This document shows positions 31,077-49,194 of a stretch of 64,000 nucleotides of DNA, piece after piece (the first letter of the stretch is position 1; each line of letters opens with the position of its first letter). The stretch spans positions 1-64,000 of the IMG/VR virus record IMGVR_UViG_2896054739_000007, one strand, 5' to 3'. Both the position numbers and the translations under genes were made by a program. The notes beneath the pieces are model-generated. The model made no database searches, was not told the DNA's origin, and was given only the letters and a program-made list of their open reading frames with translations. The DNA is from a virus (Duplodnaviria; Caudoviricetes).

Positions 31077-33713
31077 TAGTTAGTTTTATACCTTACCTTT
31101 CCACACTTTTTACATTCACAATGATATAACTTAGCCATTCCTCCGTTAATCATGTGAAGATAAGTATATGTATAATCATGTTTACAAAATAGTCTTTTTA
31201 AAAATTTCTTCATAAGATAACTTTCCCTTCTTAATCTCAATTTCTATTTCATATTCAACACATTCCGTATAATTAGGACAATCTGTACATTGAATACAAT
31301 TACAACTTTTTGCTGGTTTCATATAGTCATCTCCTTCTTTCAATGAAATTTCGGTTTTATTCTGCTATTAAGTTTCCATTTTTATCTTTATAGATTTTCA
31401 TGTCATCTCTCCAAAGACCTTTTTCTCTAAGGTATTGTGCAAACTCTAATACCTCATCTAATTGTTCTTTGAGATCTTCTGGCCATAAGTCCATATTTCT
31501 TTCAATTATACCTTTCATTATAATCATCATATTCCGTAAATGTTACTGTATCAACATTAGTTTCAAGGACTTGTCCCAATACAAATAATGCTTCATCTAC
31601 TAATACTTTATCTGGCTTCTTCTTTGACTTTGTATTAATATAATCTCTAACATATTCTGAAGCGGTAATCGGGTCAGGAATAGAAATGTCTAATCTGTTT
31701 GCAGTATCTTTAATTGTTTTTGCATGAATTTGATTCATACACAATATAGGAGTGCGTGTTATATGACTTCTATATACAAGATATGTAGTTTTTCCACGAC
31801 CTCTTGGTAAATTACATACTTCCATTTACATATTCTCCTTCCAATATTTCTTGATTATTTTAATTGCCTTTTGGAGTCCATAATTTTCTCCGATTTCATA
31901 TTTCCACTTATTTTCATATCCCTCAGTACCACCAACCAAAACATTATTACCTTTTTCATCAATATTCATTTCTCCAAGCAGATCAGAAATAATCATATTA
32001 ATTTGGTCATAACATAAACCATTTAGCATGAATGGAAGCCTTACCATATCATCATTAATGAAAAAATACTTTTTTATGTCTGTGTTCCGTGTTCTCAAAA
32101 CATATTCACATACTACTTCATCCATATCCAATAATTCATCTTGTGAAATTGGATATTTTTCAATTAGTTTATTAAATTTTTTACCTGTTTCAATGTGATA
32201 CTTATCTTCTTCTGATAATCTGTTATAATAATCAAGCTGTTTGTTCAAAACTTCAATTTCTTTACTTATACATTCTCCAAGTAATTTGAATAAATTTATA
32301 TTTTTCACCTCACTTCAAACCTTGAAATCGTGCTTTCAATGCCTCTATAATTTATTGGCTTTTATGCGACTCCATAATCTTTTAATACGGGGGCTTCATT
32401 CTTAATTTCATGTAATACAACCGTAATCATTCCATCCTCAATATGTACCTCATAACCATCATAAATATTGGTATCAATAAACAGATGAATATTTATATCA
32501 TTTTCAAATCCCAAATCTGGCATTTCATATTTACCAATAACATTTAAGTAAGTCTGTTTTGTCCTGTTCACAAACTCGGTAGAATATGTAATCAAGTCCT
32601 TTGGTATACCCCATGCCTCGTAAAGCATTACTTTATCACCATTTAATTCCTTCTCCACTACTGGTCTGTCATAATCGTTTTCATAAAACATACACTTATA
32701 CTCCTTTTCAAAAATATTTTCATCATAATTGACACTTCTAATACTATAACCACAAGAAACTGCATCTAACATTTCTTTAAATTGTTTCATCGTCTTCCCA
32801 CTTCCTCTTGCGGAAGTAACAAATAAAATTGGTCTATATTTTGCTGACTCAATCACATCATCTTTTGTAATATCACAAAAATACATTCTGTCTGTTGGAT
32901 CGTCATTATTATCGTATCTATTTTCTACAAATAGAGATTTTAGACACGGAAGAATAACTGTATTTACAACTTCTTTGTTCACTATCGAATCAACAATCAT
33001 TCCATTAAATCTATTCCCTCTTGCTGTGCTACTTGCTCTAACAACTTTTATGAGATTACCATTAGGAAATCTTACACTAGATTCACATTGATTATTTCTT
33101 ATTTCTGTTTTCTTTTGATCCCAAATCAAATTTGAAATAACATTTATTACAATATCACTTTTAGCTTTTGATGTTACCCAAACTCCACACTTATAATTTT
33201 CATTTGTGTTACAAAATTCTATTTGCTTTTTTAGTGCTTCAATTAAGTTTATTTTTATCACTCCTCTTTTATTTATATTCTCCATTCATCCGCTGTTCTA
33301 ATATCTTTGCCTCTCTCCTTAATCCTCTATCAATTTTCAGCAAACTGTTAGTATATTTCACCCATTCTTCTGCTTCTATCTTTTGAATATGATCTGACAC
33401 TTCTCTATGTATCATATCTTGCATTTTTAAATAATCTTGTAGAGATTTAGGTATTCTAATATATTTACTGTAACTTCCAGATTCTAAGACTCGTTTTATA
33501 TCTTCTCCAATATTATGTTCGTGTCCATCAGTTTCAAATAATTCTTGAAGTTCTTTTTGCTTAAAATCTGTAAACGTTTTATCAATACATTTGCCCATTT
33601 CTTCAAGTAAAGAATCATGTATTTCTTTTTCATGTTCTTTGAAGAATTGAAAAAGTTCATATTTTTGTTTTGGAATTATTGATTATCACCTCCCACCAAA
33701 TGAAACCAAGATT

Positions 33714-34406
33714 TTATTGAACTAAAATACTATTCAATTTACTATCCGCTATATCAAAATACTCTTTGTCAATTTCATACCCCAGATATTTTCTATCTAA
33801 TTCTTTTGCAGCTACTAACGTAGAGCCTGTACCACAAAAAGGATCAAATACAATATCTCCTTCTCTACTCGAATTACTAATATAGAATTTCAATAGATCT
33901 ACAGGTTTTTCACATGGGTGAGTTTTGTTACCAATGATATTATCAAATTGATGAACTGTCTTACTTCCACCTATATCATTAATCCATTTTGCTTTTCCTT
34001 TTCTAAGAAATAATATATACTCACAATTCTTCATATAAAATTGTGAACACACACAATTATTCTTTTCCCAACATAAAAGATTATGTAATTTAAAACCTGC
34101 TTTCTGTGATTCATTCAACATTTCAGTCAAGTTTAGAACATTTGTAAATATATAAGCATGACTTCCATATTTCAAAATTCTATATACTTCTGGCATCCAA
34201 TCATATATATTTACATTTTGATGTGCGAATAATGTACCAGAATTTCTTTTTAATATACCTTTTGGACGCTTTGTGCGTTTTCCATCTTTACATCCACCAG
34301 AGATTGTCTTATAGGGAGGATCGGTAACTAACAAATCTATACATTCAGATTCCATATTTTTCATTGCCTTAATAGAATCTATATTGAAAATTTTGTTTAT
34401 TTCTAT
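33714..34406 (-). CDS. N4/N6 DNA methyltransferase (beta class); probable ATA start
   Basis: TDPPY, HPCEKP, DPFCGTGST, GYEID; family-typical EINKIFNID lies upstream of the first ATG (34364). Confidence 0.9.
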   Translation of the reverse strand: MEINKIFNIDSIKAMKNMESECIDLLVTDPPYKTISGGCKDGKRTKRPKGILKRNSGTLFAHQNVNIYDWMPEVYRILKYGSHAYIFTNVLNLTEMLNESQKAGFKLHNLLCWEKNNCVCSQFYMKNCEYILFLRKGKAKWINDIGGSKTVHQFDNIIGNKTHPCEKPVDLLKFYISNSSREGDIVFDPFCGTGSTLVAAKELDRKYLGYEIDKEYFDIADSKLNSILVQ

Positions 34407-34471
34407 TTTTTCTTCACCAGAAAGTCCATATGGTTCACAGTAGCTACACTTTGTTTTTCCTTTCTGATTTT

Positions 34472-35212
34472 TTATATCAAATAATTTCTATCGTTGTGAA
34501 TATCAAACTCATATCTCAACAAAGCATCATGTACTTTTTGCGGAATTATACTCTTATATTCATTCGCTATCTTTACTATTTCTTCTTCCTTTTTCTGCGA
34601 ATATACTTTGTACGCTTTTTCGATTGTGTCAAACGAACCTAAATCTTTACCAGAATATCGTGCTGAGTATCCTTTATTAAGTTTATCAATACCATTAGGT
34701 AAATTTCTTTGATTTGGTTTATTTACAAAAAGCATATTGATTCTTTGAGGAACTAACAGACATTTATTTGGCTCATAGATTTTGTTTCCTGGATATAAAA
34801 TATCTTTATCTAAATGTAACCTCCCTTTTACTTCGTATTTATTATTTTCATACCATTCTGCAAAATTTTGATAACATAACCATTCTTCACATACTGTACT
34901 CTCTTTATAATAAACAGTTGATTCATCACAATAACATCTATATAGCATCGTAACCCATGTATTATAAGCATCCGTATGTCTTTGTGGAGATTTCTTAGTT
35001 TTATATTTTCCTTCCCCAATATACCCAATGCCGTTTACTGTAATATCATATGGATTGCTGACTTGTCCTCTTTTGAAATTTGAATAAGTTGTATTTGTTA
35101 TATAATGATGTTGGTCTAAAAATTCAACTTGCATATTATCATGTGAATGATATACAAGAATCATCATATCAGTTCCTTTATTATTCTTACGAATTTCACC
35201 AGTTCTATCTAT
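34472..35212 (-). CDS. HNH-like phage endonuclease with C-terminal AP2-like region
   Basis: W..ML.RCY, VCEEW..YQNFAEW, LDKDIL, C.LVPQRIN, LPNGI, LG.F.T.E.A. Confidence 0.72.
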   Translation of the reverse strand: MDRTGEIRKNNKGTDMMILVYHSHDNMQVEFLDQHHYITNTTYSNFKRGQVSNPYDITVNGIGYIGEGKYKTKKSPQRHTDAYNTWVTMLYRCYCDESTVYYKESTVCEEWLCYQNFAEWYENNKYEVKGRLHLDKDILYPGNKIYEPNKCLLVPQRINMLFVNKPNQRNLPNGIDKLNKGYSARYSGKDLGSFDTIEKAYKVYSQKKEEEIVKIANEYKSIIPQKVHDALLRYEFDIHNDRNYLI

Positions 35213-36082
35213 ATTTTCACCTCCATATGCCAAGGAAATTAACCTTTCAAGGCAACATTTTCTTATAGAAATGATTATCTCTATATACTCTTTTCTTTAA
35301 AATTTTAAGAATACTTATCAAATTTTCTAACCCATCAACATTGTCAAAAACAATTTCTCCAATAGGCACGCCAACATCATTTTCTATTTTTTCTCCTAAT
35401 CTTCCAACTGTATCTAATTGAGAAAAGATGAGACTGACTTTATCAAGCTCTGGATCAACTGTTTGTGTTATAGCAATATCTCCATTTCCTAAATAAATAA
35501 TTGGAATTTCTTTTTTATTTGACATATTTCACTTCTCCAATCCAAACAACATCTTACAGTCATTTTCATTATTCTCTATAATATCCATAAGTGTATGGCT
35601 ACAATAACTGCCATTCAGATAATACTTTTGATAATCATGTTTGATCCTCTCAAAAGTCCAATCATAATTGTGACAATCTATGTAACACTGTAAACGCTGC
35701 CAAGCATATTCTTCAACTATACACCTATCACAATTTTTGTGTTCTTCATTACAGTAATCACCGATAAGAGGACATACCTTTTCTTTTCTGGTATATTCGT
35801 TATCCATCTTTTCTTTCCTTGAACTTTTTGACAATTTGAGGAATACATCCGTAAAATCCCCAACATGTTTGAACCTTTTCAACTTCTTTAACTTCATAAT
35901 CGTTAGCAATACCATTAAACTCCAACCATGAAACAATAGATGATATTAAATTTTCTTCATTCATATTATAACTGCCACCCCCATCAGAACCATGTACAAT
36001 GGCTTCTACAATTATTCTATTAATTATTTCAATTTCTTTTTCTAACATAATTTTCCTCCCTTGAAACTCTGGTTTTAAGTCC

Positions 36083-36829
36083 TTACTCTAACCACTTATT
36101 ATCCAAATAATAAAACCCAAACACACAGCCGCCGATTAACACAATCCAGAATATCCAGAATATGATTAATCCTCCACCGGCTTCTAAATACTCGACTGTT
36201 TCATTTATATTTTTGTCAATATAAAACTTTGTATTATCCGAAATTGTTTGATTTCTTAAATCTGTAAAGATTGTTCCTGTGTATTTTGTTCCTATTCCAT
36301 AATATTTGTACCTGATATGACTTGATTCTTTGATGGTGTCAATATAATTTGTGTTTGGCAAATCAATCTTATTGCTACCAAAAGTAATTCCACAAAAGGA
36401 TATTTCTTGGCATTTCTTATCCTCGCTACCTACTCTATCCCAAGTCCAATAAACTTTTGTACGATAGTGTTTTCCTGACTTTACTCGTTTAGTATGTCTT
36501 GTATATTTCTCTTTTACTTTTTCAACATATATGTACTCGCCGCCAATCTCTGGATAAGTAACTGTATCAACAGCCACTAAATCGCCATACACAAAGGCAT
36601 TTCCAACATTCGTGTCCATGCCATACTGAAATAAATCTGTATTATCTATTTTTACTGCCTTGTTATAAACCTCATTTGCGTCTAGTTGGTGTTCTGAAAT
36701 CTTGCTAGAAATCAGAACACCAATTAGTAACATTACAGCCACAATAGAAATACTTGCTAAAATTTCTCTCTTGGTAATTTCAAAATCACCAAAATCAAAT
36801 CCATTCTTTCTATAACTGTATCTACTCAT
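36083..36829 (-). CDS. Membrane protein partnered with LemA
   Basis: N- and C-terminal hydrophobic helices; directly follows lemA. Confidence 0.65.
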   Translation of the reverse strand: MSRYSYRKNGFDFGDFEITKREILASISIVAVMLLIGVLISSKISEHQLDANEVYNKAVKIDNTDLFQYGMDTNVGNAFVYGDLVAVDTVTYPEIGGEYIYVEKVKEKYTRHTKRVKSGKHYRTKVYWTWDRVGSEDKKCQEISFCGITFGSNKIDLPNTNYIDTIKESSHIRYKYYGIGTKYTGTIFTDLRNQTISDNTKFYIDKNINETVEYLEAGGGLIIFWIFWIVLIGGCVFGFYYLDNKWLE

Positions 36830-36831
36830 AT

Positions 36832-37383
36832 TTATTCTCCAAACAAATTCTGAGGTGCTGTCTCAGGTGCGTCATAATCCAAATATGTATAATCCTGCGC
36901 TTCATAACCAAGCATATTTAAAAATATTCTTGTTGGAAACTTGCGAACATATCTGCTGTACTCTTTTACCTGTTTATTATAATTACTTCTATATTCCGCA
37001 ATCAGATTTTCAGTCATTACCAATTCATTCATAAGCTGCTTATAGTTTTCATTTGACTTCAGCTCTGGATATGCTTCTGAAACTGCTGTAATGGCTGTTG
37101 TCACATTTTCAATATCACCTGCTGATCCACGCCCCTCAGCGATAGCTGTGAGAGTTTCAAATTCATGTTTGTCATATTGCTTCACGCAATCAGCAAGGTT
37201 ATACACCAAATCTACTCTTCTTTTCTCCTGAACTTTAATATCTGATTGTGCTGTGTTTACCTGTTCTTCCAAAGCAAACGCTCTATTCTGAGAACTCTGT
37301 ACACCAAATACACAAAGTAGGATAACAGCTACAATACCTACTCCAATGATTAACGGTAACTTCCAATTTGTTTTCTTGTTCAT
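36832..37383 (-). CDS. lemA: LemA family protein
   Basis: N-terminal TM helix, RR.DLV.NL, EAYPELKSNENY, YN..V..Y...FP. Confidence 0.9.
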   Translation of the reverse strand: MNKKTNWKLPLIIGVGIVAVILLCVFGVQSSQNRAFALEEQVNTAQSDIKVQEKRRVDLVYNLADCVKQYDKHEFETLTAIAEGRGSAGDIENVTTAITAVSEAYPELKSNENYKQLMNELVMTENLIAEYRSNYNKQVKEYSRYVRKFPTRIFLNMLGYEAQDYTYLDYDAPETAPQNLFGE

Positions 37384-37581
37384 AATTTTCTTTCTCCTTT
37401 TAATTTTATTTTTTATCTGATTGAGTAATCAGAATTTTATTGATTTCTTAACGGCAAAATATTATTGACAAACATTTCCATTTTTGTTACAATATTTTCA
37501 AATAAACGATAGATTAAGACTTAAGACTATTAACGTACAAAAGATAAACATACATCGCCAAAATGAAAGGGGTACAGCCGT

Positions 37582-37740
37582 ATGATTTATTTTTGTGTAA
37601 CTTTAATAGTTTTTTTATTTTTCCTTTGCTTTGTAATTTACAAAAAGAAAAACGATAATCTTGATCTTAACCTGAAAATTAATTTTCTACATATTTTACA
37701 GATTGAATTGGGTTGTAAATCTTCCAAAAAGAAAAAGTAA
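37582..37740 (+). CDS. 52-aa hydrophobic protein with basic tail (type I toxin-like; not in ORF track)
   Basis: AAAGGGG SD; MIYFCVTLIVFLFFLCFVIYKKKND...SSKKKK. Confidence 0.6.
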   Translation: MIYFCVTLIVFLFFLCFVIYKKKNDNLDLNLKINFLHILQIELGCKSSKKKK

Positions 37741-38433
37741 TAACGTGCCAATGAAAGCAAAATTTCAACAAATCGTCCTTAAATAATTTTGATAATCTTC
37801 CTTTGTATATTCATATTTATTTGCTATGTTTACACATTTTTCTGTTTTCCAAGGTTCACATCCTTCATCTTCTAATGTAGAAAACCAATATCCAATTAAA
37901 TCTTTAATATCACTATACATCTCATTAATTCTATTCTTTATACTTTCTGCTTCATGAAAACTAAATTTTCTAACAGCAACTAATGAATTTAAATAATCCC
38001 ATGCTACTTGAAAATCATCCCTGCTTTCTTTATAAAAATAACACTCACCATACTTATCTGTAGCCGATTCTGCTGGAATATCAAAATTAGTATGATTATC
38101 ACTATCTATATGATGATGTCCACAATCGCCTGTATAATTTTTACATGTTTTACAATTCATAAATCCTCCAATTTTCCCAATGAAAGAGTTGTTTTCTGGC
38201 ATCAATCTAACACTGGTTTACATGTATCTGACCATCTTTTATCTTTATGTTTTTCTATGAATTTTTCACACTCATCCCAATCTTTATGTAACGAAAAAAG
38301 TATTTTCCACAATATTTACATTTTAATTCTATTTCTAAAAAACGGATATCATTATCGTTATATCCGTGAGTCCAATGCCAGCAAACCACCTCACTATTTT
38401 TATGTCTGCAAAACAAATCCATAATCCTTTTAA

Positions 38434-38811
38434 TCATTTTCTTCTCCATTCCTCACACTGAAATCCGTTCTGATTTAACCACTCAGCTACCAAATATCTG
38501 TGACAAAAATCTGATGGTTTCTCATAACAAATCAGTGCAATGTCTTTGCCATTTACATTCGGAACTAAATAATTTAATTCCTTAATTACAGTGGCAGCAT
38601 CTAAAACATCCAGAACCTCAACTTTAAAACGCTCTATATAATAGTCATTATCATGATTCTTTTTCCATTCCATGAAGAATCCATACTTTGGAGCCAACTT
38701 TTTATACTGTAATCCCTTATACCAGTCAGGTGCTTTACCACAGATTGAGATTGGTATAATGTTATGATTTTCTAACTCTTTTAGCTTTGCAAAATAACTC
38801 GTGTATATCAT
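38434..38811 (-). CDS. DUF488-family protein
   Basis: IYTSYF, KKLAP, ALICYEKP..CHR..VAEWL. Confidence 0.8.
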   Translation of the reverse strand: MIYTSYFAKLKELENHNIIPISICGKAPDWYKGLQYKKLAPKYGFFMEWKKNHDNDYYIERFKVEVLDVLDAATVIKELNYLVPNVNGKDIALICYEKPSDFCHRYLVAEWLNQNGFQCEEWRRK

Positions 38812-39578
38812 TTACTATTCATTTCATCCCCCACATAATTTTTATCATGAACAATAGATACTTCATATTTCAACAGTGCTTGATACACTTCGTCTGGAAT
38901 AATCTCTTTGTACTCATTTGCAATATTTATAATATCTTTTTTCTTTTTACTGGCGTATACGGAATATGCTTCCTCAACAGAGTTATATACTCCTAATTCC
39001 ATTTGATTATACTTTGCCAAATATCCACAAGAATTTTTTCTAATTCCATTTGGAAGACCACGTTTATTTGGTTTATTTAAGAAAAGCATATTAATTCGTT
39101 GTGGAACTAATAAACATTTTTCTGGTGCATAAACAGTATTCCCAGGACATTTTATATCTTTGTCTAAGTGTAGTCTCCCATCACATTCATATTCTCTTTC
39201 CTTATACCAATCTGCAAATAGCTGATAATTTAACCATTCATTACATACAGTACATTTATCATAATATGAAGGATGAAGTTCCTGATTTTTGTCGTAGTAA
39301 CACCTTTCGATCATGTGCATCCAACATAAATAAACTCTTGAAAATTTACCATTATGTTTAACTTTCCACTTACCATCACCAATATAACCAATACCAAATA
39401 CAGATCTATCATATGGATTTTTAATAGTACCTTTTACAAAATTTGAATATGCACTATGCCTTTTCACATAATGAAAATCATCTAAAAATTCCACATCCAT
39501 GTCATTTCGTTTACGATAAGCGATAATTTTCATTTTTGTTCCCTGGTTATTGATTCTTATTTCTCCTAATCTATCCGT
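38808..39578 (-). CDS. HNH-like endonuclease, paralogue of 34472-35212; probable ACG start
   Basis: Same motifs (GRLHLDKDI, KCLLVPQRINMLF, LPNGI). Confidence 0.72.
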   Translation of the reverse strand, partial: TDRLGEIRINNQGTKMKIIAYRKRNDMDVEFLDDFHYVKRHSAYSNFVKGTIKNPYDRSVFGIGYIGDGKWKVKHNGKFSRVYLCWMHMIERCYYDKNQELHPSYYDKCTVCNEWLNYQLFADWYKEREYECDGRLHLDKDIKCPGNTVYAPEKCLLVPQRINMLFLNKPNKRGLPNGIRKNSCGYLAKYNQMELGVYNSVEEAYSVYASKKKKDIINIANEYKEIIPDEVYQALLKYEVSIVHDKNYVGDEMNSK

Positions 39579-40369
39579 TTTATCACCTCTTTCTAAATGG
39601 CAAGGAAATGAAAAATTCATTCGTACTTATTCTTAAATCCTGATGAATACTCTGCTTCATCATCTTGATATACTGTGATTTCTCTATCACTCATTCCTAC
39701 ATACTCAAGTTCATACTTTTTAATATAAGCATCCATTGACTTAGGTTTCATCTCACCCCAAGAAGGATATGGAAATGTTGTTTTATCTCTAAAATCCATT
39801 CGCCCATATTCTCTTGGATCATAATCATAACCTTTTCTTCTACATACGAATTTGTCAAACTCAATACCATTCGCTCTATGCCAGTCAATAATCGAATATG
39901 TATTGAACTCATAAGAATTTTCAGCCATACGATTATAACTAACATAATCGATTATAATGTCTGCCCAGGGGTATTTCTTACTTCTGAAGATCATTCCTGT
40001 TTTATATTTCTCTTTGTATTTTTTTATTACAATGCTAACCTTTTTGTCTGTATAAAATATCATTCATATTAATTCCAACAGATTTTTTACTCCACTTTTT
40101 ACAATCAATATGAGTCCTGATAAATACGTTAGCCCTACTTTCAATATCTAAAATATCTTTTACTGCTTTCATACACTCTTCTTTGTACATACACACGTCT
40201 TCTTTATCACAGTTCTCACAAATTTTTTCACCAGTGTTTTTAATATTTGGCATTGGAATATTGCAGTTTGTTTGTGGTAATTTACTATTACTTTCATAAG
40301 TTCTTGATACTTTCTGCATATCATACTCAGATGCAACACCGTTAATAATACTACTCATTCTATTTCTCC

Positions 40370-41143
40370 TCACAAAACAATATTGTTCCATTTCTTGTTC
40401 TTTTCATATTTCCACTGAATATTTCCAAAACTGATTCTCGTTTCAATTTCTTCTACATTTTTCATAGAAAGTAACCATTCACGATACGCATTCACTTCCT
40501 CATCTGTAGCATCCTGAAATACTTTCCAATGATTAAGAGTTTTGTCAATCTCCTCTACTGCCCATTCATAATCAGACAATGTAGCTTGTCTTCTAAATTC
40601 TGCAAGATACTCTTCTACTTCAGCCTTTGCCTCTTGATATGTAAAATACACTTTATCTGGCCTGATGCTCACATGAGTTATATGATGTTGCCACATAGGG
40701 TATTTCTTAATGATGCGAAATCCTTCTTTGGTAATATCAGTTTCAATATTTCCATGAAAAATCTTATTGGATTTAACAAGCAAACCTGATTCATATGCTT
40801 TCTTAATTGACTCTGGATCATCTATTCGCACACATAATTCTTTAAATAATTTTTCATCTTCAGAATCAGTTTTCCATTCCAAATCAAACAATTTTGTATT
40901 ATGTGTCCAGCCTTTAGGAAGTTTTCTATATTTTTGGTTATCCTTAAATTCATCAATTGGAACTCCATTTATATATCTTGTTTCTTTTGGTTCCAATAGA
41001 TCTATACATACAGCATCAGAAAATTGTTCGTCTACTCTGCCATATTGAACACTATATTCATTTCTACTTTTATTACACCAATAAACAATATCTCCATGTT
41101 TAAATCTTTTTCCAAAACCTTTTTTGATATTTATCACCACCAT
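40370..41143 (-). CDS. Hypothetical phage protein
   Basis: 257-aa ORF; start uncertain. Confidence 0.6.
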   Translation of the reverse strand: MVVINIKKGFGKRFKHGDIVYWCNKSRNEYSVQYGRVDEQFSDAVCIDLLEPKETRYINGVPIDEFKDNQKYRKLPKGWTHNTKLFDLEWKTDSEDEKLFKELCVRIDDPESIKKAYESGLLVKSNKIFHGNIETDITKEGFRIIKKYPMWQHHITHVSIRPDKVYFTYQEAKAEVEEYLAEFRRQATLSDYEWAVEEIDKTLNHWKVFQDATDEEVNAYREWLLSMKNVEEIETRISFGNIQWKYEKNKKWNNIVL

Positions 41144-41278
41144 TCCTTTTTTTAGTGTAATTCTCCCCTCGTTATATACAAGGAAGTATCTACACTACTG
41201 CTTGTCATAAACATCATTCCTATCATCTATAGGAAATCGTTAGAATTGTTAAGGTGATTATCTGCCGAATGGAAGAAA

Positions 41279-41869
41279 TCAATTATGAGCTGGTAAATCT
41301 ATTAAATCTTTATTATTTAATATCCAAATCGCTCTTCTCATATGTTTTCTCTTTAATCCTCTATTTTTAAACCAAGGACACATAATCAGTTTTCCTTTTT
41401 TCACCGATGACGTTTGTACTAAGTGTGTGTCTTTAAAACACTCTAAATCAAAGCACTCATCATCAAGAATTACAAAGTTATCTACTTCGTTTTGGTGTTT
41501 TGATAGCCAAGATAATATTTCTTTATCACGCCTACCATCGGATGATTTTGGTGTAATATCAATAACTTCAATATTGTATTTATTTAGCAAATCTGTTAGC
41601 AACTTCTGATCATCTGTTTTCTCTTCATATGGTACATTCCAAAATCCACCACGCCAACTACTTGACATTACAACTTTTGAATCTGTTGCAGCCACAATCT
41701 TAGATAAGTACTTAATCTTTTCTTTATGAATGGTAAATGAATTTCTTATATGTTTTCTATACCAATCTTGTATGTGCAACAAACAAGACACATTCCAGCC
41801 TAATAAAGACCAAAAATCATACCCATTTAATACACCATCAACATCAAGAAATATAATTTTTTGTTTTAT
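41279..41869 (-). CDS. HAD-family phosphatase (Swiss-Army-knife RNA repair type); ATA start
   Basis: IIFLDVDGVLN lies in frame upstream of the annotated GTG; VVMSSSWR, FVILDD. Confidence 0.85.
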   Translation of the reverse strand: MKQKIIFLDVDGVLNGYDFWSLLGWNVSCLLHIQDWYRKHIRNSFTIHKEKIKYLSKIVAATDSKVVMSSSWRGGFWNVPYEEKTDDQKLLTDLLNKYNIEVIDITPKSSDGRRDKEILSWLSKHQNEVDNFVILDDECFDLECFKDTHLVQTSSVKKGKLIMCPWFKNRGLKRKHMRRAIWILNNKDLIDLPAHN

Positions 41870-41915
41870 AAATCACACCTCCTACCATGAAACCGATGAT
41901 TTAAGTCTATATGTA

Positions 41916-42797
41916 CTATTCCTCTTTTGCAAAATTCAACATTTCATCTTTTGCTCTCTGGTAGAAATTACGGTCAATTTCAAAACCATAAGCACTTCTA
42001 CCAAGTTCATAAGCAGCTCTTAATGTAGTTCCACTTCCGCAACACGGATCAATAACTACATCACCAGGATCAGTAAATATTTCAATCAATCGTTTCAGAA
42101 CTGCTACTGGCTTCTGAGCTGGATGAATCTTAGGTATCTCTTTCCCCTTATCTTTTTCCCACATCATATATGTACTGTTGTTATAATAAGTTCTTCCCCA
42201 TTCATCTTCATTCCCACCATCAAACCAATTAAAAATCATATGTCCTGTACCTGGAATATTCTTGCCATTCTCGTCAATTTGAAGTCCATTTCTGAATTTA
42301 GGCAATTTATCTCTGTATAACAGAAGTGCATACTCAGCGGCTCCTACAACACGCATATTCGCTTTAAGCACCTGTGGACTATAATTCTTACAAAAGATCA
42401 GCGGAATGTAATGAACAAATTCATGCTTCTCTGCTGCTTTGATGAGTGTCTGAATCTGTTCAAATGAGCAAAATACAATCATACAAGGTGAATTACTGCT
42501 CCGACCTCTTGGAACGGGTCTAGTATCATCCTTTTTCAGCATCTTGGAACAAAAATGAAAATACTCATATAGATTAAAATTGAAATCAGAGTTGAACGCT
42601 GCTTTACCAGCTAATTTGCTTTCACCTTTTTTATTGTCTCCTCCGTTGTACCACATCGGATTTGAACCGTAAAAATTATTTCCTACATTATATGGAACAT
42701 CTGCAATAATTAACTGAGCAGGTGGAATTGCATACTTCTTATAATTTTGCATAGAGTCCCTATATAATTCACATTTGATTTTCTTTTGATATTCCAT
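41916..42797 (-). CDS. N4/N6 DNA methyltransferase
   Basis: IADVPY, HPAQKP, DPCCGSGT, GFEID. Confidence 0.88.
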   Translation of the reverse strand: MEYQKKIKCELYRDSMQNYKKYAIPPAQLIIADVPYNVGNNFYGSNPMWYNGGDNKKGESKLAGKAAFNSDFNFNLYEYFHFCSKMLKKDDTRPVPRGRSSNSPCMIVFCSFEQIQTLIKAAEKHEFVHYIPLIFCKNYSPQVLKANMRVVGAAEYALLLYRDKLPKFRNGLQIDENGKNIPGTGHMIFNWFDGGNEDEWGRTYYNNSTYMMWEKDKGKEIPKIHPAQKPVAVLKRLIEIFTDPGDVVIDPCCGSGTTLRAAYELGRSAYGFEIDRNFYQRAKDEMLNFAKEE

Positions 42798-43710
42798 TCT
42801 TATTTAGGAGTAAATCCGGATTTATTCTGCGCAGAAACCTCATTTCCTCCTAATCTTTTTCTTTATTTGCTTTGCATTTGCTTATTTGTTACTTCTACTT
42901 CTCAACTATCAATGAATCGAAATTTTTATTGCTTAATATTCTTCTTCTGGCTCGTCAGGTTCCTCTAGTTCCATTCCTAAAATACAACCAATCTGATATG
43001 CTGCCCAACTTGTTCCAGATTCATATCCATCATTAAAGCAATCATCATAATTTCCCGCTGATCTCTCTGATGTCCACCCAGTAGAATATTGTTTATAATG
43101 ATCTTTCACCCATTCCTCTAATTTCTTTTTGATATTACTATCCATACTCTTTCTCCTTTAATTAAATTTTTTGCTTTGAAATTGGCTTTTCAACTGCTAA
43201 TCTTGATATCCATTTACTAGGACATTTTCATATAATTTTATTGTTTGTTTTGTACCAAAAATCTTCTTATTCAAGTCTTCGATACATTGTCTACAATACT
43301 GTTCATCAATACTTTTTACTTCTTTTTCTAATCCCCTACTTACTAATTCTTCTCTAACAATAGGAACAGAATCAAATGCTTCATTATCTGTATAATATTT
43401 GAGTAGTTCATCATTAGTTATTTCAGAAATAACTTCCTTGCAATTTTCTTCTTCTCCAAAATTCGAACAATGAAAACCACATCCACCATTTATCCCTTGA
43501 CTAAAACATGAATCTCCACCACTCAATATGTAACGATCATATGCATTTCTTTCAGATTGAATCCTCGGTTCTAACTCATGTTTTATTCGAAAATTAGCAC
43601 TATATAATTTATCATCTGTTTTTCTATATTCTCTTTGCAAATCCCCATATTCTTTTTGTAATTTTTCATACTTATATTTCAGATTTTCATATTTTTCTTC
43701 TATGGTGTCA

Positions 43711-44662
43711 CTATACAATATTTACATCACACCTTCCTTTTACACATTCCAAAATTCTATTTTTACCAATATTAAATATCTCTTCATCATTCTCAATACA
43801 AATACATTTCCTGGCTGTCCTAATAGTAGCTACGCAAGTTGTCATACTACCAGCCGTTGAATCAAGCACAGTATCGCCCTCATCAGTATAAGTTTTAATA
43901 ATTTCTTCTACTAATGCTACTGGCTTTTGAGTTGGAGTTAATGCACACTTTTGGGTATCTTTGGCGAATAGCCAAACTGACTTAGGAAATCTCTCTGTAC
44001 TGTCATATGTATGATTTTTGATTTCGTTGTAATTTGTTGACTGCTTACTATTTCTTTTGTGGGACGCTGTACTTACTTTCCTGATGTATCCACTTGTTTT
44101 CTGAGGATTATACGTTGGTTGTTTCTTATAGAAAACACACATATCCTCATGGTTTCTCATTGGCATTCTATTAGCATTCTGGAACCCTGTAGGTTGTGTT
44201 TTCTCCCAAATGAGATTGTATTTTCTCCCAAATGAGATTGTATTTCCACATCTCACGATTGCTCTCCATAAGATCAGCGGTAAACATTCCGTTTGCAAAT
44301 AGAATAATTGCGCCATTATCTTTAATAATTCTTTTATATTGAGTCCATAACCCTATAGACTTATTTTCTTCAAAATACGCAAGCGCACCATTATAATTAG
44401 TTTCTCCTTGCTTATAACACCACAAAAGAAAATCATCTTTATAAAATACCTTTGGTTTCTTTCTCACTTCTAAAGTTATATAGTCATTAAATGGAATTAC
44501 TATATCCCAAGCATTCCTGGCGGTCTGCCCAAACGGAAGATCTGTGATAATTGCATCTATAGATCTATCAGGAATATCATCCATCAGTTTTAGACAATCA
44601 CCTTGCCATAATTCATAATTATTATTCTCAAATATTTTCTTTTCCCAGAAAGGCATGATCAT
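43711..44662 (-). pseudogene. N4/N6 DNA methyltransferase frameshifted by a 22-bp tandem duplication
   Basis: GDCL, TDLPF in the 5' ORF; PTQKP, DSTAGS in the 3' ORF; TTTTCTCCCAAATGAGATTGTA twice at 44199-44242. Confidence 0.88.
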
Positions 44663-45353
44663 CTTACGGTTGCAACACCTTTGTTCCTTTCTGTGTTATT
44701 TTTCTTAAACTTCCTTGATTTTATCTGCTAACAAATTTATTAATCTTGCACCATGCGGATATAACGCATTTTCCATTACTATGTAATCTAATTGCATCAT
44801 TCCTCTACCTTGATTTTCTTCAATAATATCTGCTAATATATTGAAAAAATCTGCTTGTTGCGCTGAATCCATATTCCAGAACTCTTCAGCTAATTCCTGT
44901 GGATTCATTTCTATATTAACCTCTCTTGTTACTATTTCTTTTCACCTCCTCTTGATGAAACAGATTTTTCATGGTTATTCATTATAGTTAATTACACCAC
45001 ATTCCTTTAAAATATCCATTGCAAATTTACCGACATCTTCAAATTTACTATGCTGAGTAGAAAATTTTGCAATCTGATCTACCATGTAAATTGTTTTTGA
45101 TACCTTTACTTGATCTTTCAGTCCGCCATGTTGAGTAATAGCATAAACGATATATGCCAAATCTTCTGGATTATACTCCTTTACTTCGTACCCAAAATCT
45201 TTCAACATTTTCTTGGTCATTTTTTCATCACTCAAGACTGTTTTCACCATCTTGTCAAGCTGTTCATCTGTTATCTTATTATCTTCCATATAATTTCTCC
45301 TTTACTATTTTACACTTGACTACCTATCAGCTTTTGTATTATGTTTAATTAAC

Positions 45354-45401
45354 ATAATTTTGTTGAGTACAATATCTCTCAACTTTCAGATGCAAAATCA
45401 C
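45354..45401 (-). ncRNA. Putative guide-RNA scaffold element downstream of the Cas12f/TnpB gene
   Basis: GTGATTTT-gcatctgaaa-GTTGAG-loop-CTCAAC-AAAATTAT. Confidence 0.55.
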
Positions 45402-45423
45402 CTGATTACTTACAACAGATTTA

Positions 45424-46698
45424 TTAAACAAAATCCGTTGACATAGCAATATTTCTACTTGCATTAAAGTCTGCATTTAACTCTGCACCACAAGATTTAC
45501 ATTTAAAATGTGCCTGATCAATCCTCTGTCCCTCCTCCCAATGTCCACAACAACTACAAATCTGTGAAGTATGATATGGATTTATCTTCCTTACTTCTAT
45601 TCCATATTTGGCAGCTTTATATGTAATAAACTGTTGAAGTTCATAAAAACTCCAATTTCTTAATATAAATTGATTTGAATCAAAACCGCTTAAATCTTCT
45701 ACATTTATGTATTTTGCTTTGTTCTTAACTGCAAAATCTACAACATTTTTACTGACATAATGGTTATATGTTTTTACAAAATTTCTTTCTCTGTCTTTTA
45801 ATTTCTCTAATGGTTTTAATTTCTTTTGTCTACCGTGCCCACCAGATGTTGATGCTAGGGATTTTTGTAATCTTCTTCTCTGTGACTGTAATTGTGTTCT
45901 AATTCTTAAAAAATCATCTTTAGAACCAATAGATTGTCTTATATAATCATTTGTATTCAATCCACACATAGCAGGTATAGCAAGTCCTAAATCTACACCA
46001 ACAACTATATTTTCATCCAATTCTAGTTCTTGCTTGGGGATATCCATACTAAGATTTAAAATAATTTTCTTACCATCAATTTGAATAGAAGATCCGCACA
46101 CCTTATAGTTCTCTTCAAATATCTGCTGAATTTCGCTTCGTAAATATGCTGATTTATGTGGATTACCGAAAATCATTTTGAATGTAATATTGTTTGCAAA
46201 TTTAATAAATACTTCTAAATCTTTTGAGTACAGATGATCTAAGAAATCTGTATGTGATTCATAATTATGATACATTCCATTGTCTTGGTGATAATTTGTA
46301 CTTCGTAATCTCACAAAATTAACATGGACTAATAATGGATTATTTTTTCTATATGTTGGCAGAGAGACTTTCCCACATAGCAACCCATTTTTACATGAAT
46401 TTGCAAAGTCTTGTTTTACTTGTTTCACTACATATCCTAAATTCATATTTTTTGCAAATTCTATTGATTTATCATAAGCACTCCCTTTTTTACTATTACT
46501 TACTCTTGAATATAATCTATTTAATTCTTTTCTGTCTTCTTTAGAAATATCTTTTATTGCAGCAATGTATAACGCACTCATATATTGATTCATCGCTTTA
46601 TTCTGATAGAAAATACCATCTCTAAGATATTTATAAACCCTATCTATTTCTTCTTTTTCTCCTAATGGAATTATTTGAATTTTTCTTGTTAATATCAA
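45424..46698 (-). CDS. tnpB: Cas12f1/TnpB-family RNA-guided RuvC nuclease (about 424 aa, TTG start)
   Basis: RuvC D (GVDLG), E (INVEDLS), D (NADFNA) all intact; CSCC/CKSC Zn ribbon; GGHGR.KKL and ERNFVKTYNH resemble clostridial Cas12f1 (from memory). Confidence 0.9.
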   Translation of the reverse strand: MILTRKIQIIPLGEKEEIDRVYKYLRDGIFYQNKAMNQYMSALYIAAIKDISKEDRKELNRLYSRVSNSKKGSAYDKSIEFAKNMNLGYVVKQVKQDFANSCKNGLLCGKVSLPTYRKNNPLLVHVNFVRLRSTNYHQDNGMYHNYESHTDFLDHLYSKDLEVFIKFANNITFKMIFGNPHKSAYLRSEIQQIFEENYKVCGSSIQIDGKKIILNLSMDIPKQELELDENIVVGVDLGLAIPAMCGLNTNDYIRQSIGSKDDFLRIRTQLQSQRRRLQKSLASTSGGHGRQKKLKPLEKLKDRERNFVKTYNHYVSKNVVDFAVKNKAKYINVEDLSGFDSNQFILRNWSFYELQQFITYKAAKYGIEVRKINPYHTSQICSCCGHWEEGQRIDQAHFKCKSCGAELNADFNASRNIAMSTDFV

Positions 46699-46837
46699 TC
46701 TATTTTGCCTCCTGTTTTGTATCATAAGCAATTTTGACTTTGTATCTATATAATTTTATAAAAAATACAAAGTCCGTTACATCAAATTAGACTATAGCAA
46801 CTTTGTATCAATGCAATATTATATATATAAAATTACA

Positions 46838-46887
46838 TAGATTTTAGTGATTAGAATATATCTATCACCTTTCGGCAGCAAAATCTA
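46838..46887 (-). ncRNA. Second copy of the scaffold element, upstream of the nuclease gene
   Basis: TAGATTTT-gctgccgaaa-GGTGATAGA-loop-TCTAATCACT-AAAATCTA. Confidence 0.55.
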
Positions 46888-46958
46888 CCGTAGTTTATAC
46901 TAATTGTTGGTGGATTTTTTCCACCATTTTTCCAATAAAATCTCGAATTTATTGCTTA

Positions 46959-47870
46959 TTAATGTGACATTTTATCTGCTCTATGTAACTTCATTACTTT
47001 ATCATACAACCATTCGCCCCAAAATCGCTCATATTTTGACATTGTATCTTCTCCATGTTCTTTATCTTTTTCCCAAAAGTACGGAAACATATGTAAATTA
47101 ATCAAAATTGATACATCTAATTTATCTACACCAGACGGATATAAATAAAACAGACTGTCATATGCACCTACACAATGATGCTGATAGTAATGTGCTATAT
47201 TCGTTGTTTCTCCTTTTGAATTTACAAAAGTCTTTGTAAACGGTTTCCCACAATCATGTAAAAAACCAGCACATTCCAATAGTTTATCTTGTGCTAAAAA
47301 TGCACTTACTTTTCTACAATGTAATCCAAGAGTCATTGAATGATGTGGATTATCCTGCTCATAATTTAAATGATTATTTACCCAACATCCCATCACCTTA
47401 CGAATATCATCTTTAAATTCAATTGAAATATCATCCCACCCTTCAAACCAATAGGGTGTATTCCAATTCATATACATTCTTTTGATCACATCATATGGAA
47501 CATTTCTATCTCTTGAATCATTCCTATTACAACATTCAGCAAACGGTGTTGCCATAATAACGCACTTTTTATAACAAGGAATATTTTTTAATTCAGATAA
47601 AAATGCTCTACGCCTTTTTGAATTGATGTTGGTAGCATCATAAATAACATTTTTACCTTCTTTTAAATTCCCCTTGATTCTATCATGTAAAACTTTAAAA
47701 ACTTCTTCATTTTTATCCTGCGAATTTATATCACCACACAATTCTTTTCTAATTGTGTCTGAACTACAAATTATTGCTTCTAAATCATTTGATAATTCTT
47801 TTGCATAGGTAGATTTACCAGAGCCAGGCAAACCTACCATCATAACAAAAGTTGGTTTTGTATTATTCAT
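46959..47870 (-). CDS. Polynucleotide-kinase-like P-loop domain fused to an HD domain
   Basis: GLPGSGKST, SSD.IR, YDATN, HH...H, LHDCGKP. Confidence 0.85.
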   Translation of the reverse strand: MNNTKPTFVMMVGLPGSGKSTYAKELSNDLEAIICSSDTIRKELCGDINSQDKNEEVFKVLHDRIKGNLKEGKNVIYDATNINSKRRRAFLSELKNIPCYKKCVIMATPFAECCNRNDSRDRNVPYDVIKRMYMNWNTPYWFEGWDDISIEFKDDIRKVMGCWVNNHLNYEQDNPHHSMTLGLHCRKVSAFLAQDKLLECAGFLHDCGKPFTKTFVNSKGETTNIAHYYQHHCVGAYDSLFYLYPSGVDKLDVSILINLHMFPYFWEKDKEHGEDTMSKYERFWGEWLYDKVMKLHRADKMSH

Positions 47871-49194
47871 TTATAACTAACTCCTCTGCTTCCTCCATAT
47901 CTGGAGTATCCGCTTTATCCTTAATAATCCCTTCAAGTACCTTAAAACTGAAATTCTTATGTTTATATGCCGTAAATTTCTCTCGATTGTCAATTCTCAC
48001 TACAACTCCTTCTCTTACATGGGTCTTGCCAATCGGATCAGCACCATCATAATACTTCTCCACTCTCTCCATCAGATCTTCCCATGTAGTAAATACAAAT
48101 TTCTCAAAAGTAGGAACACACTTAATCCCTAGCTTCTCACATTCAATCTGTACCTGCTCCCAAGGAAGTTCTACAGCAAATCCATCCTCATTTGTCATAG
48201 TCATTCGATATACATAAATATCATTTTCGCCTGGTTTACACCCATATGAGAATACAGTTTCCTTACCATACTGTTTTTCAAATTCCTTATCTTTGACAAG
48301 TTTATTTGAACATCTTCCCATAATTGTCTGATCGCCTTCTGTATATCCAACAATCTCATAGAATACTTCTACACCTTTTGGAAGTTTATCTTTAAAAAAG
48401 TCCTGATATTTCTGTCTGAACGCATTACTACCATAATAGCCACCTTCATAATTTCTTAATGTGGTTCTTCTTGTCCCACTAACAACTGCAAATCGCTTAA
48501 TCTCTTTATCCCTAATTTTGAATACCTTCTTTAAAATAAAATGTCTCTTCTTTTTTACAATCTCAATAGCATTTGCAGTTCTAGCAGATGTACCATGCAT
48601 TTTAAGTGTTATGTAACAGGTATCGCCCTCTCTAAAAGCATTCTGATTATATGCAAGCTGCGCAGTATCAATATGCTCTACAAAAAATGGATAAGAAACT
48701 TTTTCCTTCTCTTCTTTCCTATTTCTATTTTTATTACCAGTGGAATTGTTTTCACATCTTCTCCGATTAGAATGCGGAATATATTTTCTACAAATTTCAT
48801 GTCCATCCAACATAGAAATCTGGTCACCATCTGATAATGTTTTTACATCTACATATTTACTTAATACTTCGATTGGCAATACAAGCCCGTCTGACTTTTC
48901 ACCTCTAAGTTTAAGAGCTGTGATATTTCTCTTATCAGGATCAAGATATCCTCCAACATTATTTCCGTTTTCGTCCTTTAAACGAACAAGATTATTATCA
49001 CATGCAAACTCTTCACTTAATTGTCCATCCACAGGGAAATAAATTACTCTCTGTCCTTCTGTATAATTCAAATCTACAATTACATTATTTCCAAAGATTG
49101 TTGCACACTGCAATCTATCAGCATTACTATGTTTTCTAAGCTGCTTAATCGTTGTTATATATCCACAATATCCATTTACTCTATTCTGTTCCAA
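47863..49194 (-). CDS. RNA ligase (DRB0094/Rnl2-like)
   Basis: HSNADRL N-terminal OB domain, TLKMHGTS adenylation motif, EGVV, YK.K. Confidence 0.82.
   Translation of the reverse strand: MEQNRVNGYCGYITTIKQLRKHSNADRLQCATIFGNNVIVDLNYTEGQRVIYFPVDGQLSEEFACDNNLVRLKDENGNNVGGYLDPDKRNITALKLRGEKSDGLVLPIEVLSKYVDVKTLSDGDQISMLDGHEICRKYIPHSNRRRCENNSTGNKNRNRKEEKEKVSYPFFVEHIDTAQLAYNQNAFREGDTCYITLKMHGTSARTANAIEIVKKKRHFILKKVFKIRDKEIKRFAVVSGTRRTTLRNYEGGYYGSNAFRQKYQDFFKDKLPKGVEVFYEIVGYTEGDQTIMGRCSNKLVKDKEFEKQYGKETVFSYGCKPGENDIYVYRMTMTNEDGFAVELPWEQVQIECEKLGIKCVPTFEKFVFTTWEDLMERVEKYYDGADPIGKTHVREGVVVRIDNREKFTAYKHKNFSFKVLEGIIKDKADTPDMEEAEELVINE

What the first reader, a model, noticed from the sequence alone, without database searches (positions are those of the whole stretch)
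34404..44693. All three methyltransferase genes share a leader: SD/anti-SD stem enclosing two palindromes
Seen on the - strand. (A, 34466-34418) CAGAAAGGA..GTAGCTAC..CCATATGG.aCTTTCTG. (B, 44693-44646) CAGAAAGGA..GTTGCAAC..ATGATCAT.gCCTTTCTG. (C, 42853-42804) TTAGGAGGA..TTCTGCGCAGAA.TAAATCCGGATTTA.CTCCTAA. The strong SD is about 50 nt from the probable gene start and pairs with a downstream anti-SD. The stem covaries between A/B and C. Each loop holds two self-complementary sequences that differ in sequence but not in position. A and B also have tiny uORFs (GTG TAG; GTG TTG CAA CCG TAA). Inference: an undescribed cis-regulator. Options are mRNA-mRNA dimerisation through the palindromes (copy-number sensing), SAM sensing, or autoregulation through methylatable sites (AGCT, TGCA, GCGC, GATC, CCGG).
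Basis: partly seen in the sequence, partly recalled or inferred. Interest (0 to 1): 0.75.

Follow-up and report, generated by a model that had tools for sequence, protein, structure and literature searches.

The report
Twin-palindrome leader locking methyltransferase ribosome site
All three DNA-methylase genes of this gut-bacterium prophage are preceded by a short folded RNA stretch that pairs the gene's ribosome-binding sequence with a copy of the ribosome's own RNA tail and holds two perfectly self-complementary motifs; the same device precedes four different methylase families (Pfam/PHROG) in hundreds of related phages and matches no Rfam family.

Summary
Taken alone they are statistically weak, but comparison with other genomes settles it. 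The same 45-55-nt architecture recurs in more than 150 viral contigs and at least 33 Clostridia genomes, mostly Lachnospiraceae. It consists of an SD arm, two perfect palindromes and an anti-SD arm, with the start codon 0-10 nt later. It precedes DNA methyltransferases of four families (PF01555, PF00145, PF02086, phrog_757).

In this genome, 3 of 3 prophage methylase genes have it and 0 of 5 elsewhere do. The outer helix covaries, with 23 arm pairs; 7 of its 9 internal mismatches are G·U and none is A·C, so it acts as sense RNA. The centre of palindrome 1 stays self-complementary in 143 of 144 independent copies, including adjacent bases that cannot pair within a hairpin.

My best reading is a portable translational lock on the SD. 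The palindromes suggest RNA self-pairing, which is unproven. Autoregulation through methylation sites, SAM sensing and conserved uORFs are not supported. There is no Rfam match, although an automated phage-RNA catalogue may list the element unnamed.

This scan noted what sounds like the same element earlier on other DNA (e1-5351336). Genes A and B appear damaged here.

The parts
34418..34466 (-). Leader A. Outer helix arms are 34460-34466 (SD side) and 34418-34424. Palindrome 1 is 34440-34447 (AGCT centre). Palindrome 2 is 34426-34433 (ATAT centre).
   Evidence: same subtype as L001
33714..34406 (-). Methyltransferase A (PF01555). Its frame has no canonical start. ATA 34406-34404 aligns with the ATG/TTG of relatives. 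The GTG at 34417-34415, which is in frame in the closest relative L001, is 1 nt out of frame here beside an A6 run (34406-34411).
44646..44693 (-). Leader B. Arms are 44686-44693 and 44646-44653. Palindrome 1 is 44669-44676 (TGCA centre). Palindrome 2 is 44655-44662 (GATC centre) and contains the ORF's ATG (44662-44660).
   Evidence: relatives L002, L280, L281
43711..44662 (-). Methyltransferase B (PF01555), split into two frames (44662-44171 and 44316-43711) by a 22-nt tandem duplication.
44194..44245 (-). The 22-nt tandem duplication (2.4 copies, 96% identical) that breaks B's reading frame.
42804..42853 (-). Leader C. Arms are 42847-42853 and 42804-42810. Palindrome 1 is 42825-42836 (GCGC centre). 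Palindrome 2 is 42811-42824 (CCGG centre). The start ATG is 6 nt after the 3' arm.
   Evidence: 52.4 bits with model R1
41916..42797 (-). Methyltransferase C (PF01555), intact, 293 aa.
   Evidence: relatives

Best explanation
This is a cis-acting mRNA leader of 45-55 nt. It belongs to a widespread family in phages and prophages of gut Clostridia, mainly Lachnospiraceae, and that family matches no Rfam entry. The RNA folds as a three-way junction. The outer helix pairs the gene's only strong Shine-Dalgarno sequence with a downstream copy of the 16S rRNA 3' tail. That copy sits where an ordinary SD would be, ending 0-10 nt before the start codon. In the B subtype the ATG lies inside the second hairpin instead. 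Two short hairpins built from perfect palindromes fill the junction.

The ribosome must compete with the in-cis anti-SD for the SD. The leader therefore most likely holds translation of the DNA methyltransferase at a low or conditional level. It behaves as a portable expression module that travels between methylase genes of different families.

Shown here: the architecture, its conservation, covariation of the outer helix and hairpins, RNA-type G·U tolerance, the link to methylase genes, and the lack of any other SD.
Inferred: that the fold represses translation, and what opens it.

The perfect self-complementarity of the hairpin centres cannot be explained by a monomer hairpin. It probably reflects pairing between two RNA copies. 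That step is inference only.
For: - Architecture in the window.
- Relatives keep the frame but swap the palindromes.
- Outer helix: 23 distinct arm pairs among 30 distinct leaders. Internal mismatches are G·U 7, G·G 1, G·A 1 and A·C 0.
- Hairpins: 92% of cells paired against 72% in shuffles (0 of 500 shuffles reach the observed value), and 35-54% when the partner columns are slid.
- The 3' arms repeat 5-7 bases of the 16S 3' tail of a same-order relative.
- The start codon lies 4-10 nt after the 3' arm in C-type leaders, with no strong SD in between.
- Downstream genes belong to PF01555, PF00145, PF02086 and phrog_757. The HNH cases are insertions into a C5 methylase locus.
- Same-genome control: 3 of 3 prophage methylase genes have the leader. 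The 5 methylase genes elsewhere have an ordinary SD 4-10 nt from the ATG and no leader.
- Predicted SD accessibility is 0.13-0.26 in the leaders against a median of 0.61 in the controls.
- No promoter- or terminator-like site adjoins the leaders.
Against: - No expression data exist, so the direction of the effect (repression or activation) is not known.
- Single-sequence folds are not exceptional (z -0.8 to -3.1).
- SD accessibility overlaps the control range; one control scores 0.16.
- In C-type leaders the SD is about 45 nt from the start, so it is unclear how a freed SD could place the ribosome on that start codon.
- Some spacers hold weak GGA or GAG motifs that might act as a proximal SD.
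- A plain SD lock does not need perfect palindromes, so part of the design remains unexplained.
- The 16S tail was read from a same-order relative, because this assembly lacks a 16S gene.
Confidence: 0.6

Rival explanations
1. Self-recognising RNA switch. The palindromes make two copies of the same mRNA pair with each other, first by kissing loops and then as an extended duplex. Translation would then respond to the concentration of that mRNA, and so to phage genome copy number. Different palindromes on each methylase mRNA would keep the messages from cross-pairing.
For: - The centre of palindrome 1 is self-complementary in 143 of 144 independent copies.
- Both central pairs, including the pair between adjacent bases, are Watson-Crick in 38 of 38 distinct leaders, with 18 and 15 double changes.
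- All 16 self-complementary tetramers occur among 100 distinct palindromes.
- Other hairpins in this window have palindromic loops only at background rate: 5% overall and 0-2% for GC-containing loops. Palindromes are depleted genome-wide. A general mutational drive is therefore unlikely.
- Predicted dimer gain is -16 to -20 kcal/mol for C-type leaders, matched by 0-3 of 100 shuffles.
- Leaders within one genome always carry different palindromes.
- Precedents exist in HIV-1 DIS, oskar mRNA and the hatchet ribozyme (PMC7357161).
Against: - No experiment shows dimers.
- The cofold gain follows by construction from the palindromes.
- A and B are not unusual in this measure (6 and 92 of 100 shuffles).
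- In the large L085 subfamily hairpin 2 has a non-palindromic loop.
- In the predicted dimers the SD is still paired, so no switch logic follows from them.
- The within-genome difference rests on about 6 genomes and is expected by chance.
Confidence: 0.2
2. DNA-level element. The leader would be a recombination or cassette-exchange signal whose palindromes act in DNA, as hairpins or cruciforms or as targets of structure-specific nucleases. This would explain why methylase genes are shuffled behind it.
For: - One identical leader precedes at least 8 different first genes in otherwise similar phages of about 55 kb.
- HNH and endonuclease-VII-like genes sit next to leaders.
- Stops in all three frames lie just upstream in that phage family.
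- The palindromes are perfectly Watson-Crick, as a duplex-DNA signal would be.
- PeSL cassettes of T4-type phages are a precedent for short regulatory motifs that mediate shuffling.
Against: - The element always has the orientation of the gene, with fixed spacing to its start codon.
- Its arms are an SD and a copy of the 16S tail.
- Mismatches are G·U and never A·C, which is strand-specific. G·U extensions of the palindromes outnumber A·C 20 to 9.
- The palindromes are only 8-14 bp, which by general knowledge is short for cruciform extrusion.
- Shuffling by ordinary homologous recombination needs no palindromes.
Confidence: 0.1
3. The fold activates rather than represses, like the split ribosome-binding sites of T4 genes 38 and 25. 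The inner hairpins would shorten the effective SD-to-start distance.
For: In B the layout is SD, 5 nt, a 12-nt hairpin, 5 nt, then ATG. This matches the geometry described for T4 genes 38 and 25 (PMC3014915).
Against: - The SD itself is paired in the outer helix in every subtype.
- In A- and C-type leaders the anti-SD arm and a spacer still separate the hairpins from the start, leaving more than 20 unpaired nt.
Confidence: 0.08
4. Autoregulation through methylatable sites. The palindromes would be recognition sites of the encoded enzymes, so that methylation of the leader DNA feeds back on expression.
For: The palindrome cores are typical 4-6-bp restriction-modification sites and lie in front of methylase genes.
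Against: - Enzymes 71-81% identical to A, or 87% identical to C, carry unrelated palindromes.
- The same leader precedes N6/N4, C5 and phrog_757 enzymes.
- GCGC and CGCG leaders occur with the same downstream genes and in phages with equal densities of both sites.
- All 16 centres are used.
- Every palindromic hexamer resembles some restriction site, so the resemblance carries no information.
Confidence: 0.03
5. A SAM- or SAH-sensing riboswitch.
For: The downstream enzymes use SAM. This rests on knowledge of the families, not on a test.
Against: - No Rfam family, SAM classes included, matches at E<=1.
- The only well-conserved positions outside the helices are the SD and a short A-rich linker; loops, junction lengths and hairpin sequences vary freely.
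Confidence: 0.02

Closest known systems
SD-sequestering mRNA structures of phage genes (T4 genes e, soc, 49, I-TevI; PMC3014915), and Mu com-mom translational control (recalled from memory)
   Same: In both, a local helix hides the SD and/or the start codon of a phage gene whose untimely expression is harmful. Mu mom is also a DNA-modification gene.
   Different: Here the helix is closed by a copy of the 16S tail placed at the normal SD position. It encloses two perfect palindromes. It is shared by four different methylase families. No trans-activator such as Com is known. No zinc-finger ORF adjoins the leaders in this window.
Split ribosome-binding sites of T4 genes 38 and 25 (PMC3014915)
   Same: A hairpin lies between a distant SD and the start codon. 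The B-type geometry (5 nt, hairpin, 5 nt) matches.
   Different: In T4 the SD is unpaired and the structure enhances translation. Here the SD is one strand of the outer helix, and A- and C-type starts lie beyond the anti-SD arm.
Palindromic dimerisation loops (HIV-1 DIS, oskar 3'UTR, hatchet ribozyme; PMC7357161)
   Same: GC-rich self-complementary loop sequences differ between lineages yet stay self-complementary through paired changes.
   Different: Dimer formation is not shown here. These palindromes span the whole short hairpin (8-14 nt). They lie in a bacterial-phage mRNA leader, and there are two per RNA.
PeSL mobile regulatory cassettes of T4-type phages (PMC2839356, PMC4122927)
   Same: A short conserved regulatory motif with a stem-loop flanks variable genes, and alternative genes are found behind the same motif.
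   Different: PeSLs combine a promoter with a terminator. This element has neither and acts at the ribosome-binding site.
Unnamed candidate structured RNAs upstream of N6-adenine methyltransferase genes in IMG/VR (PMC10690425)
   Same: They come from the same data source and have the same gene association. One of the four candidates might be this element.
   Different: The paper gives no sequence, structure or mechanism in its text. Its supplements were not available, so identity could not be checked.

Membership tests
Any Rfam 15 family (including SAM-I to SAM-VI and SAM/SAH riboswitches) | Covariance-model match | tested here: not met
   cmscan of 30000-48000 on both strands, at E<=1, gave 0 matches.
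SD-sequestering translational operator | The SD is one strand of a helix that is conserved and covaries | tested here: met
   23 distinct arm pairs among 30 leaders. Mismatches are G·U 7 and A·C 0. See also the parses.
SD-sequestering translational operator | No alternative SD next to the start codon | tested here: inconclusive
   No strong SD lies between the 3' arm and the start. Some spacers do hold weak GGA or GAG motifs, and A has a GGTGA-like motif 6 nt before its ATA.
SD-sequestering translational operator | Disrupting the helix raises translation | not testable with these tools
   This needs reporter assays. Only predicted accessibility is available.
Split RBS (T4 gene 38/25 type) | A hairpin between SD and AUG brings the spacing to about 5-11 nt | tested here: inconclusive
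   Met for B, where the layout is 5 nt, a 12-nt hairpin and 5 nt. Not met for A or C.
Split RBS (T4 gene 38/25 type) | The SD itself is unpaired | tested here: not met
   The SD is the 5' arm of the outer helix in all subtypes.
Palindromic RNA dimerisation site (DIS-like) | The loop sequence is self-complementary and kept so by paired changes | tested here: met
   143 of 144 copies. 38 of 38 distinct leaders, with 18 and 15 double changes.
Palindromic RNA dimerisation site (DIS-like) | The RNA forms homodimers | not testable with these tools
   Only RNAcofold predictions are available.
PeSL-type mobile regulatory cassette | An early promoter plus a terminator stem-loop | tested here: not met
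   No promoter- or terminator-like site lies at or next to the leaders.
PeSL-type mobile regulatory cassette | Alternative genes are found behind the same motif | tested here: met
   At least 8 different first genes follow one near-identical leader.
Methylation-site autoregulation (CfrBI-type, recalled from memory) | The site in the leader matches the specificity of the encoded enzyme | tested here: not met
   Palindromes are uncoupled from enzyme identity. Enzyme specificities themselves were not determined.

The most novel reading that the evidence does not exclude
The leader is a self-recognising RNA. Its ever-changing but always self-complementary motifs would make copies of the same methylase mRNA pair with one another and with no other message. 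Each methylase gene of a phage would then read out its own transcript concentration, and so the phage genome copy number, and set translation accordingly. This would be a bacterial-phage counterpart of retroviral dimerisation sites, used for gene dosage control.
Probability: 0.2. Interest if true: 0.85.

Novelty: new variant of a known kind. Interest (0 to 1): 0.66.

Why it matters
Phage DNA methyltransferases decide whether a phage survives host restriction. How phages control them in the dominant gut Clostridia is essentially unknown. This leader is a compact, portable control module shared by four enzyme families, which points to a common regulatory need.

Its palindromes show an unusual evolutionary signature: bases that cannot pair within one hairpin still covary. 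That makes a concrete and cheap hypothesis testable, namely that a bacterial-phage mRNA regulates itself by self-pairing. The element could also serve as a marker for methylase islands in phage genomes and as a small tunable translation part for Firmicutes.

Tried and rejected
- **uORF coupling as the common mechanism.** uORFs exist in A and B, but across 24 leaders they are absent, out of register or overlapping in no consistent way.
- **Centre choice as restriction-site avoidance.** GCGC- and CGCG-type phages have equal densities of both sites elsewhere. The cores used in this window also occur elsewhere in it.
- **A general mutational drive making hairpins into palindromes.** Other inverted repeats here have palindromic loops only at background rate, and palindromes are depleted overall.
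- **In-window statistics.** Counts of palindrome pairs and fold z-scores alone are not significant.
- **Model R1.** It is narrow. It finds C-type leaders only, missing A and B and 58 of the 73 species-level loci, so a sequence-independent parser was used instead. Its one weak hit in front of a TrpC-like gene (L278) is a false positive.
- **The SD-plus-two-palindromes stretch before the RNA-ligase gene (49216-49259).** It lacks the anti-SD arm and folds no better than shuffles, so it is not a member.
- **Com-like activator.** No zinc-finger ORF lies next to the leaders in this window.
- **16S tail of this genome.** It is not assembled, so a same-order relative was used.
- **Near-identical phage in INPHARED.** None found.
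- **Literature.** Four searches found no description. One search was malformed. The supplements of PMC10690425 are not held.
- It was redone from coordinates.
- **My first reading of A.** I first read it as a simple frameshift of a GTG start. I revised this after alignment: both explanations (a 1-nt loss, or ATG changed to ATA) remain possible.


Full report
**What is in the window**

Genes in this part of the window run on the - strand, and the region looks like a prophage. It holds an RNA ligase, a kinase/HD protein, a TnpB-like gene and many ORFs of unknown function. It holds exactly three DNA methyltransferase genes, all of Pfam family PF01555:
- A, 33714-34406
- B, 43711-44662
- C, 41916-42797

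A strong SD forms the 5' arm of a 7-8 bp stem. Its complement forms the 3' arm. Two perfect palindromes of 8-14 nt lie between them.

**Is it more than chance?**

Within the window alone it is not. Minimum-energy folds do give the proposed three-way junction, but z-scores are only -1.6, -3.1 and -0.8. Eight-nucleotide palindromes are common in this 31% GC sequence: 256 observed against 353 in shuffles. Closely spaced GC-containing pairs occur as often in shuffles, 4 against 3.8. The case rests on comparison with other genomes.

**Conservation**

- Relatives of A in IMG/VR (71-81% identical proteins) keep the SD arm, the anti-SD arm and two palindromes at the same places. The palindromes themselves are unrelated, with centres such as CTGCAG, TCGCGA, GAATTC and CCCGGG.
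- Eighty relatives of C gave 62 distinct upstream regions with the same plan.
- Relatives of B add further variants.
- In species-representative genomes, at least 33 of 70 C-like genes show a clear leader. The hosts are mostly Lachnospiraceae and other gut Clostridia, and the closest is Lachnospiraceae bacterium MD308.
- A covariance model built on C-type leaders (R1) scores C at 52 bits. Nothing else in the window scores above 13 bits.
- R1 finds no other copy in this genome. Among 150 genomes of the family it finds one true copy, L279, and one false positive.

**Link to methylase genes**

I scanned IMG/VR for the conserved flanks of palindrome 1 in one subfamily, a scan blind to the downstream gene. 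It returned 144 independent contexts. The first genes behind them were several divergent PF01555 enzymes, C5 enzymes (PF00145), phrog_757 methyltransferases and a few HNH endonucleases.

Extra leader copies found by R1 inside already fetched loci precede D12/Dam-class enzymes (PF02086). Where an HNH gene follows the leader, the remainder of a C5 methylase lies directly behind it. These cases are therefore homing-endonuclease insertions into a methylase locus.

The same-genome control is clean. The five methylase genes outside this prophage have an ordinary SD 4-10 nt before the ATG and no leader. That is 0 of 5, against 3 of 3 inside the prophage.

**RNA or DNA?**

- The outer helix has 23 distinct arm pairs among 30 distinct leaders. 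When any mismatch is allowed, the internal mismatches are G·U seven times, G·G once, G·A once and A·C never.
- The palindromes extend outward through G·U more often than through A·C, 20 to 9.
- The element always has the orientation of its gene, and the start codon lies 0-10 nt after the 3' arm.
- The 3' arms repeat 5-7 bases of the 16S rRNA 3' tail. I read that tail from a same-order relative because this assembly lacks a 16S gene.
- No promoter- or terminator-like site adjoins the leaders.

Together these points indicate a sense-strand RNA structure at the ribosome-binding site.

**The palindromes**

In the 144 contexts, the four central bases of palindrome 1 were GCGC (82), CGCG (57), CCGG (4) and CACG (1). 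The flanks were otherwise near-identical, and both main alleles occurred with the same downstream genes.

On the Infernal alignment of 38 distinct leaders, both central pairs are Watson-Crick in every sequence. This includes the pair between adjacent bases. They show 18 and 15 double changes and four pair types each. These pairs were not part of the model.

Among 100 distinct leader palindromes, all 16 self-complementary tetramers occur as centres. Adjacent bases cannot pair within a hairpin, so something other than a monomer hairpin keeps the centres self-complementary.

A general mutational drive is unlikely. Other inverted repeats in this window have palindromic loops only at the background rate (5% overall, 0-2% for GC-containing loops). 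Palindromes as a class are depleted.

Hairpin 2 is less strict. In the largest subfamily its loop is not palindromic.

**Readings I tested and set aside**

- Methylation-site autoregulation fails. Palindromes are uncoupled from enzyme identity and from the density of the same sites elsewhere in the phage.
- The window does avoid some sites: CGCG is 0 against 13.9 expected, and GGCC is 4 against 30.7. The cores used in its leaders are not unique to them.
- SAM sensing has no support, and the junctions and loops are variable.
- uORFs are inconsistent across leaders.

**Mechanism**

The best-supported reading is a translational lock. The only strong SD is paired in cis with a mimic of the ribosome's own anti-SD, and that mimic sits where an SD normally lies.

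Predicted SD accessibility is 0.13-0.26, against a median of 0.61 for the control genes. The ranges overlap.

In B the layout is SD, 5 nt, hairpin, 5 nt, ATG. This resembles the split ribosome-binding sites of T4 genes 38 and 25.

In C-type leaders it is unclear how a freed SD about 45 nt upstream would place the ribosome on the start codon. I regard this as the main open point.

The palindromes would let two copies pair. Predicted gains are -16 to -20 kcal/mol for C-type leaders, matched by 0-3 of 100 shuffles, but A and B are unremarkable. Palindromic loops are the classic signature of RNA homodimers. Whether such pairing happens, and what it would do to translation, is not shown.

**State of the three genes here**

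- C is intact.
- B is broken by a 22-nt tandem duplication.
- A has no canonical in-frame start. ATA stands where relatives have ATG or TTG. The GTG that is in frame in its closest relative is 1 nt out of frame here, beside an A6 run.

**Novelty**

There is no Rfam match, and I found no paper describing the element. An automated catalogue of phage RNAs mentions four unnamed candidates upstream of N6-adenine methyltransferase genes. I could not check whether one of them is this element.

My independent tests agree with it. They add the test of the central bases, the four enzyme families, the same-genome control and the strand test.

Noticed in passing
44194-44245 (-): A 22-nt tandem duplication (2.4 copies) inside methyltransferase B shifts the frame. 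The gene is split into ORFs 44662-44171 and 44316-43711.
   Followed up: yes
34404-34417 (-): Methyltransferase A lacks a canonical start. ATA stands where relatives have ATG or TTG. The GTG used in frame by relative L001 is 1 nt out of frame next to an A6 run. This may be near-cognate initiation, slippage or a dead gene. Another first-reader note (e1-5758336) flags near-cognate starts in this stretch.
   Followed up: partly
49216-49259 (-): An SD-like motif followed by two GC-containing 8-nt palindromes lies upstream of an RNA-ligase gene (47863-49194). There is no anti-SD arm, and the fold is no better than shuffles (z -0.55). It is a look-alike, not a member.
   Followed up: yes
whole window: Strong avoidance of some 4-bp palindromes: CGCG 0 (13.9 expected), GGCC 4 (30.7), CTAG 29 (82) and GATC 113 (204). 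This suggests pressure from host restriction systems.
   Followed up: partly
45424-46731 (-): A TnpB / IS605 OrfB-like gene (Cas12f1-like TNB domain) lies just upstream of the methylase B region.
   Followed up: no
46959-49194 and 41279-41791 (-): An RNA-repair-type set interleaved with the methylase genes: an RNA ligase (PF09414 plus a PHA02142 OB fold), an AAA_33 kinase/HD protein, and a HAD domain of 'Swiss Army Knife' RNA-repair proteins.
   Followed up: no
L215:3214-3900 and L172:4053-4740: An HNH (NUMOD4/HNH_3) gene sits directly behind a leader and in front of the remainder of a C5 methylase, whose motif I region is out of frame with the following ORF. This looks like a homing-endonuclease invasion of the gene's 5' end.
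   Followed up: partly
L086:1410-1441 and many relatives: In the family of roughly 55-kb phages, a short run giving stop codons in all three frames lies immediately upstream of the leader. It looks like an insulated cassette boundary.
   Followed up: no
L282:2318-2491: A 58-aa ORF with a CxxC zinc-ribbon-like motif directly follows a leader in a methylase array. It could be a small nucleic-acid-binding regulator. It matches no family.
   Followed up: no
L118:1489-1500: ACG stands where related C-like methylase genes have ATG. An in-frame ATG lies inside the leader, just after the SD, and would give an N-terminal extension read through the element.
   Followed up: no
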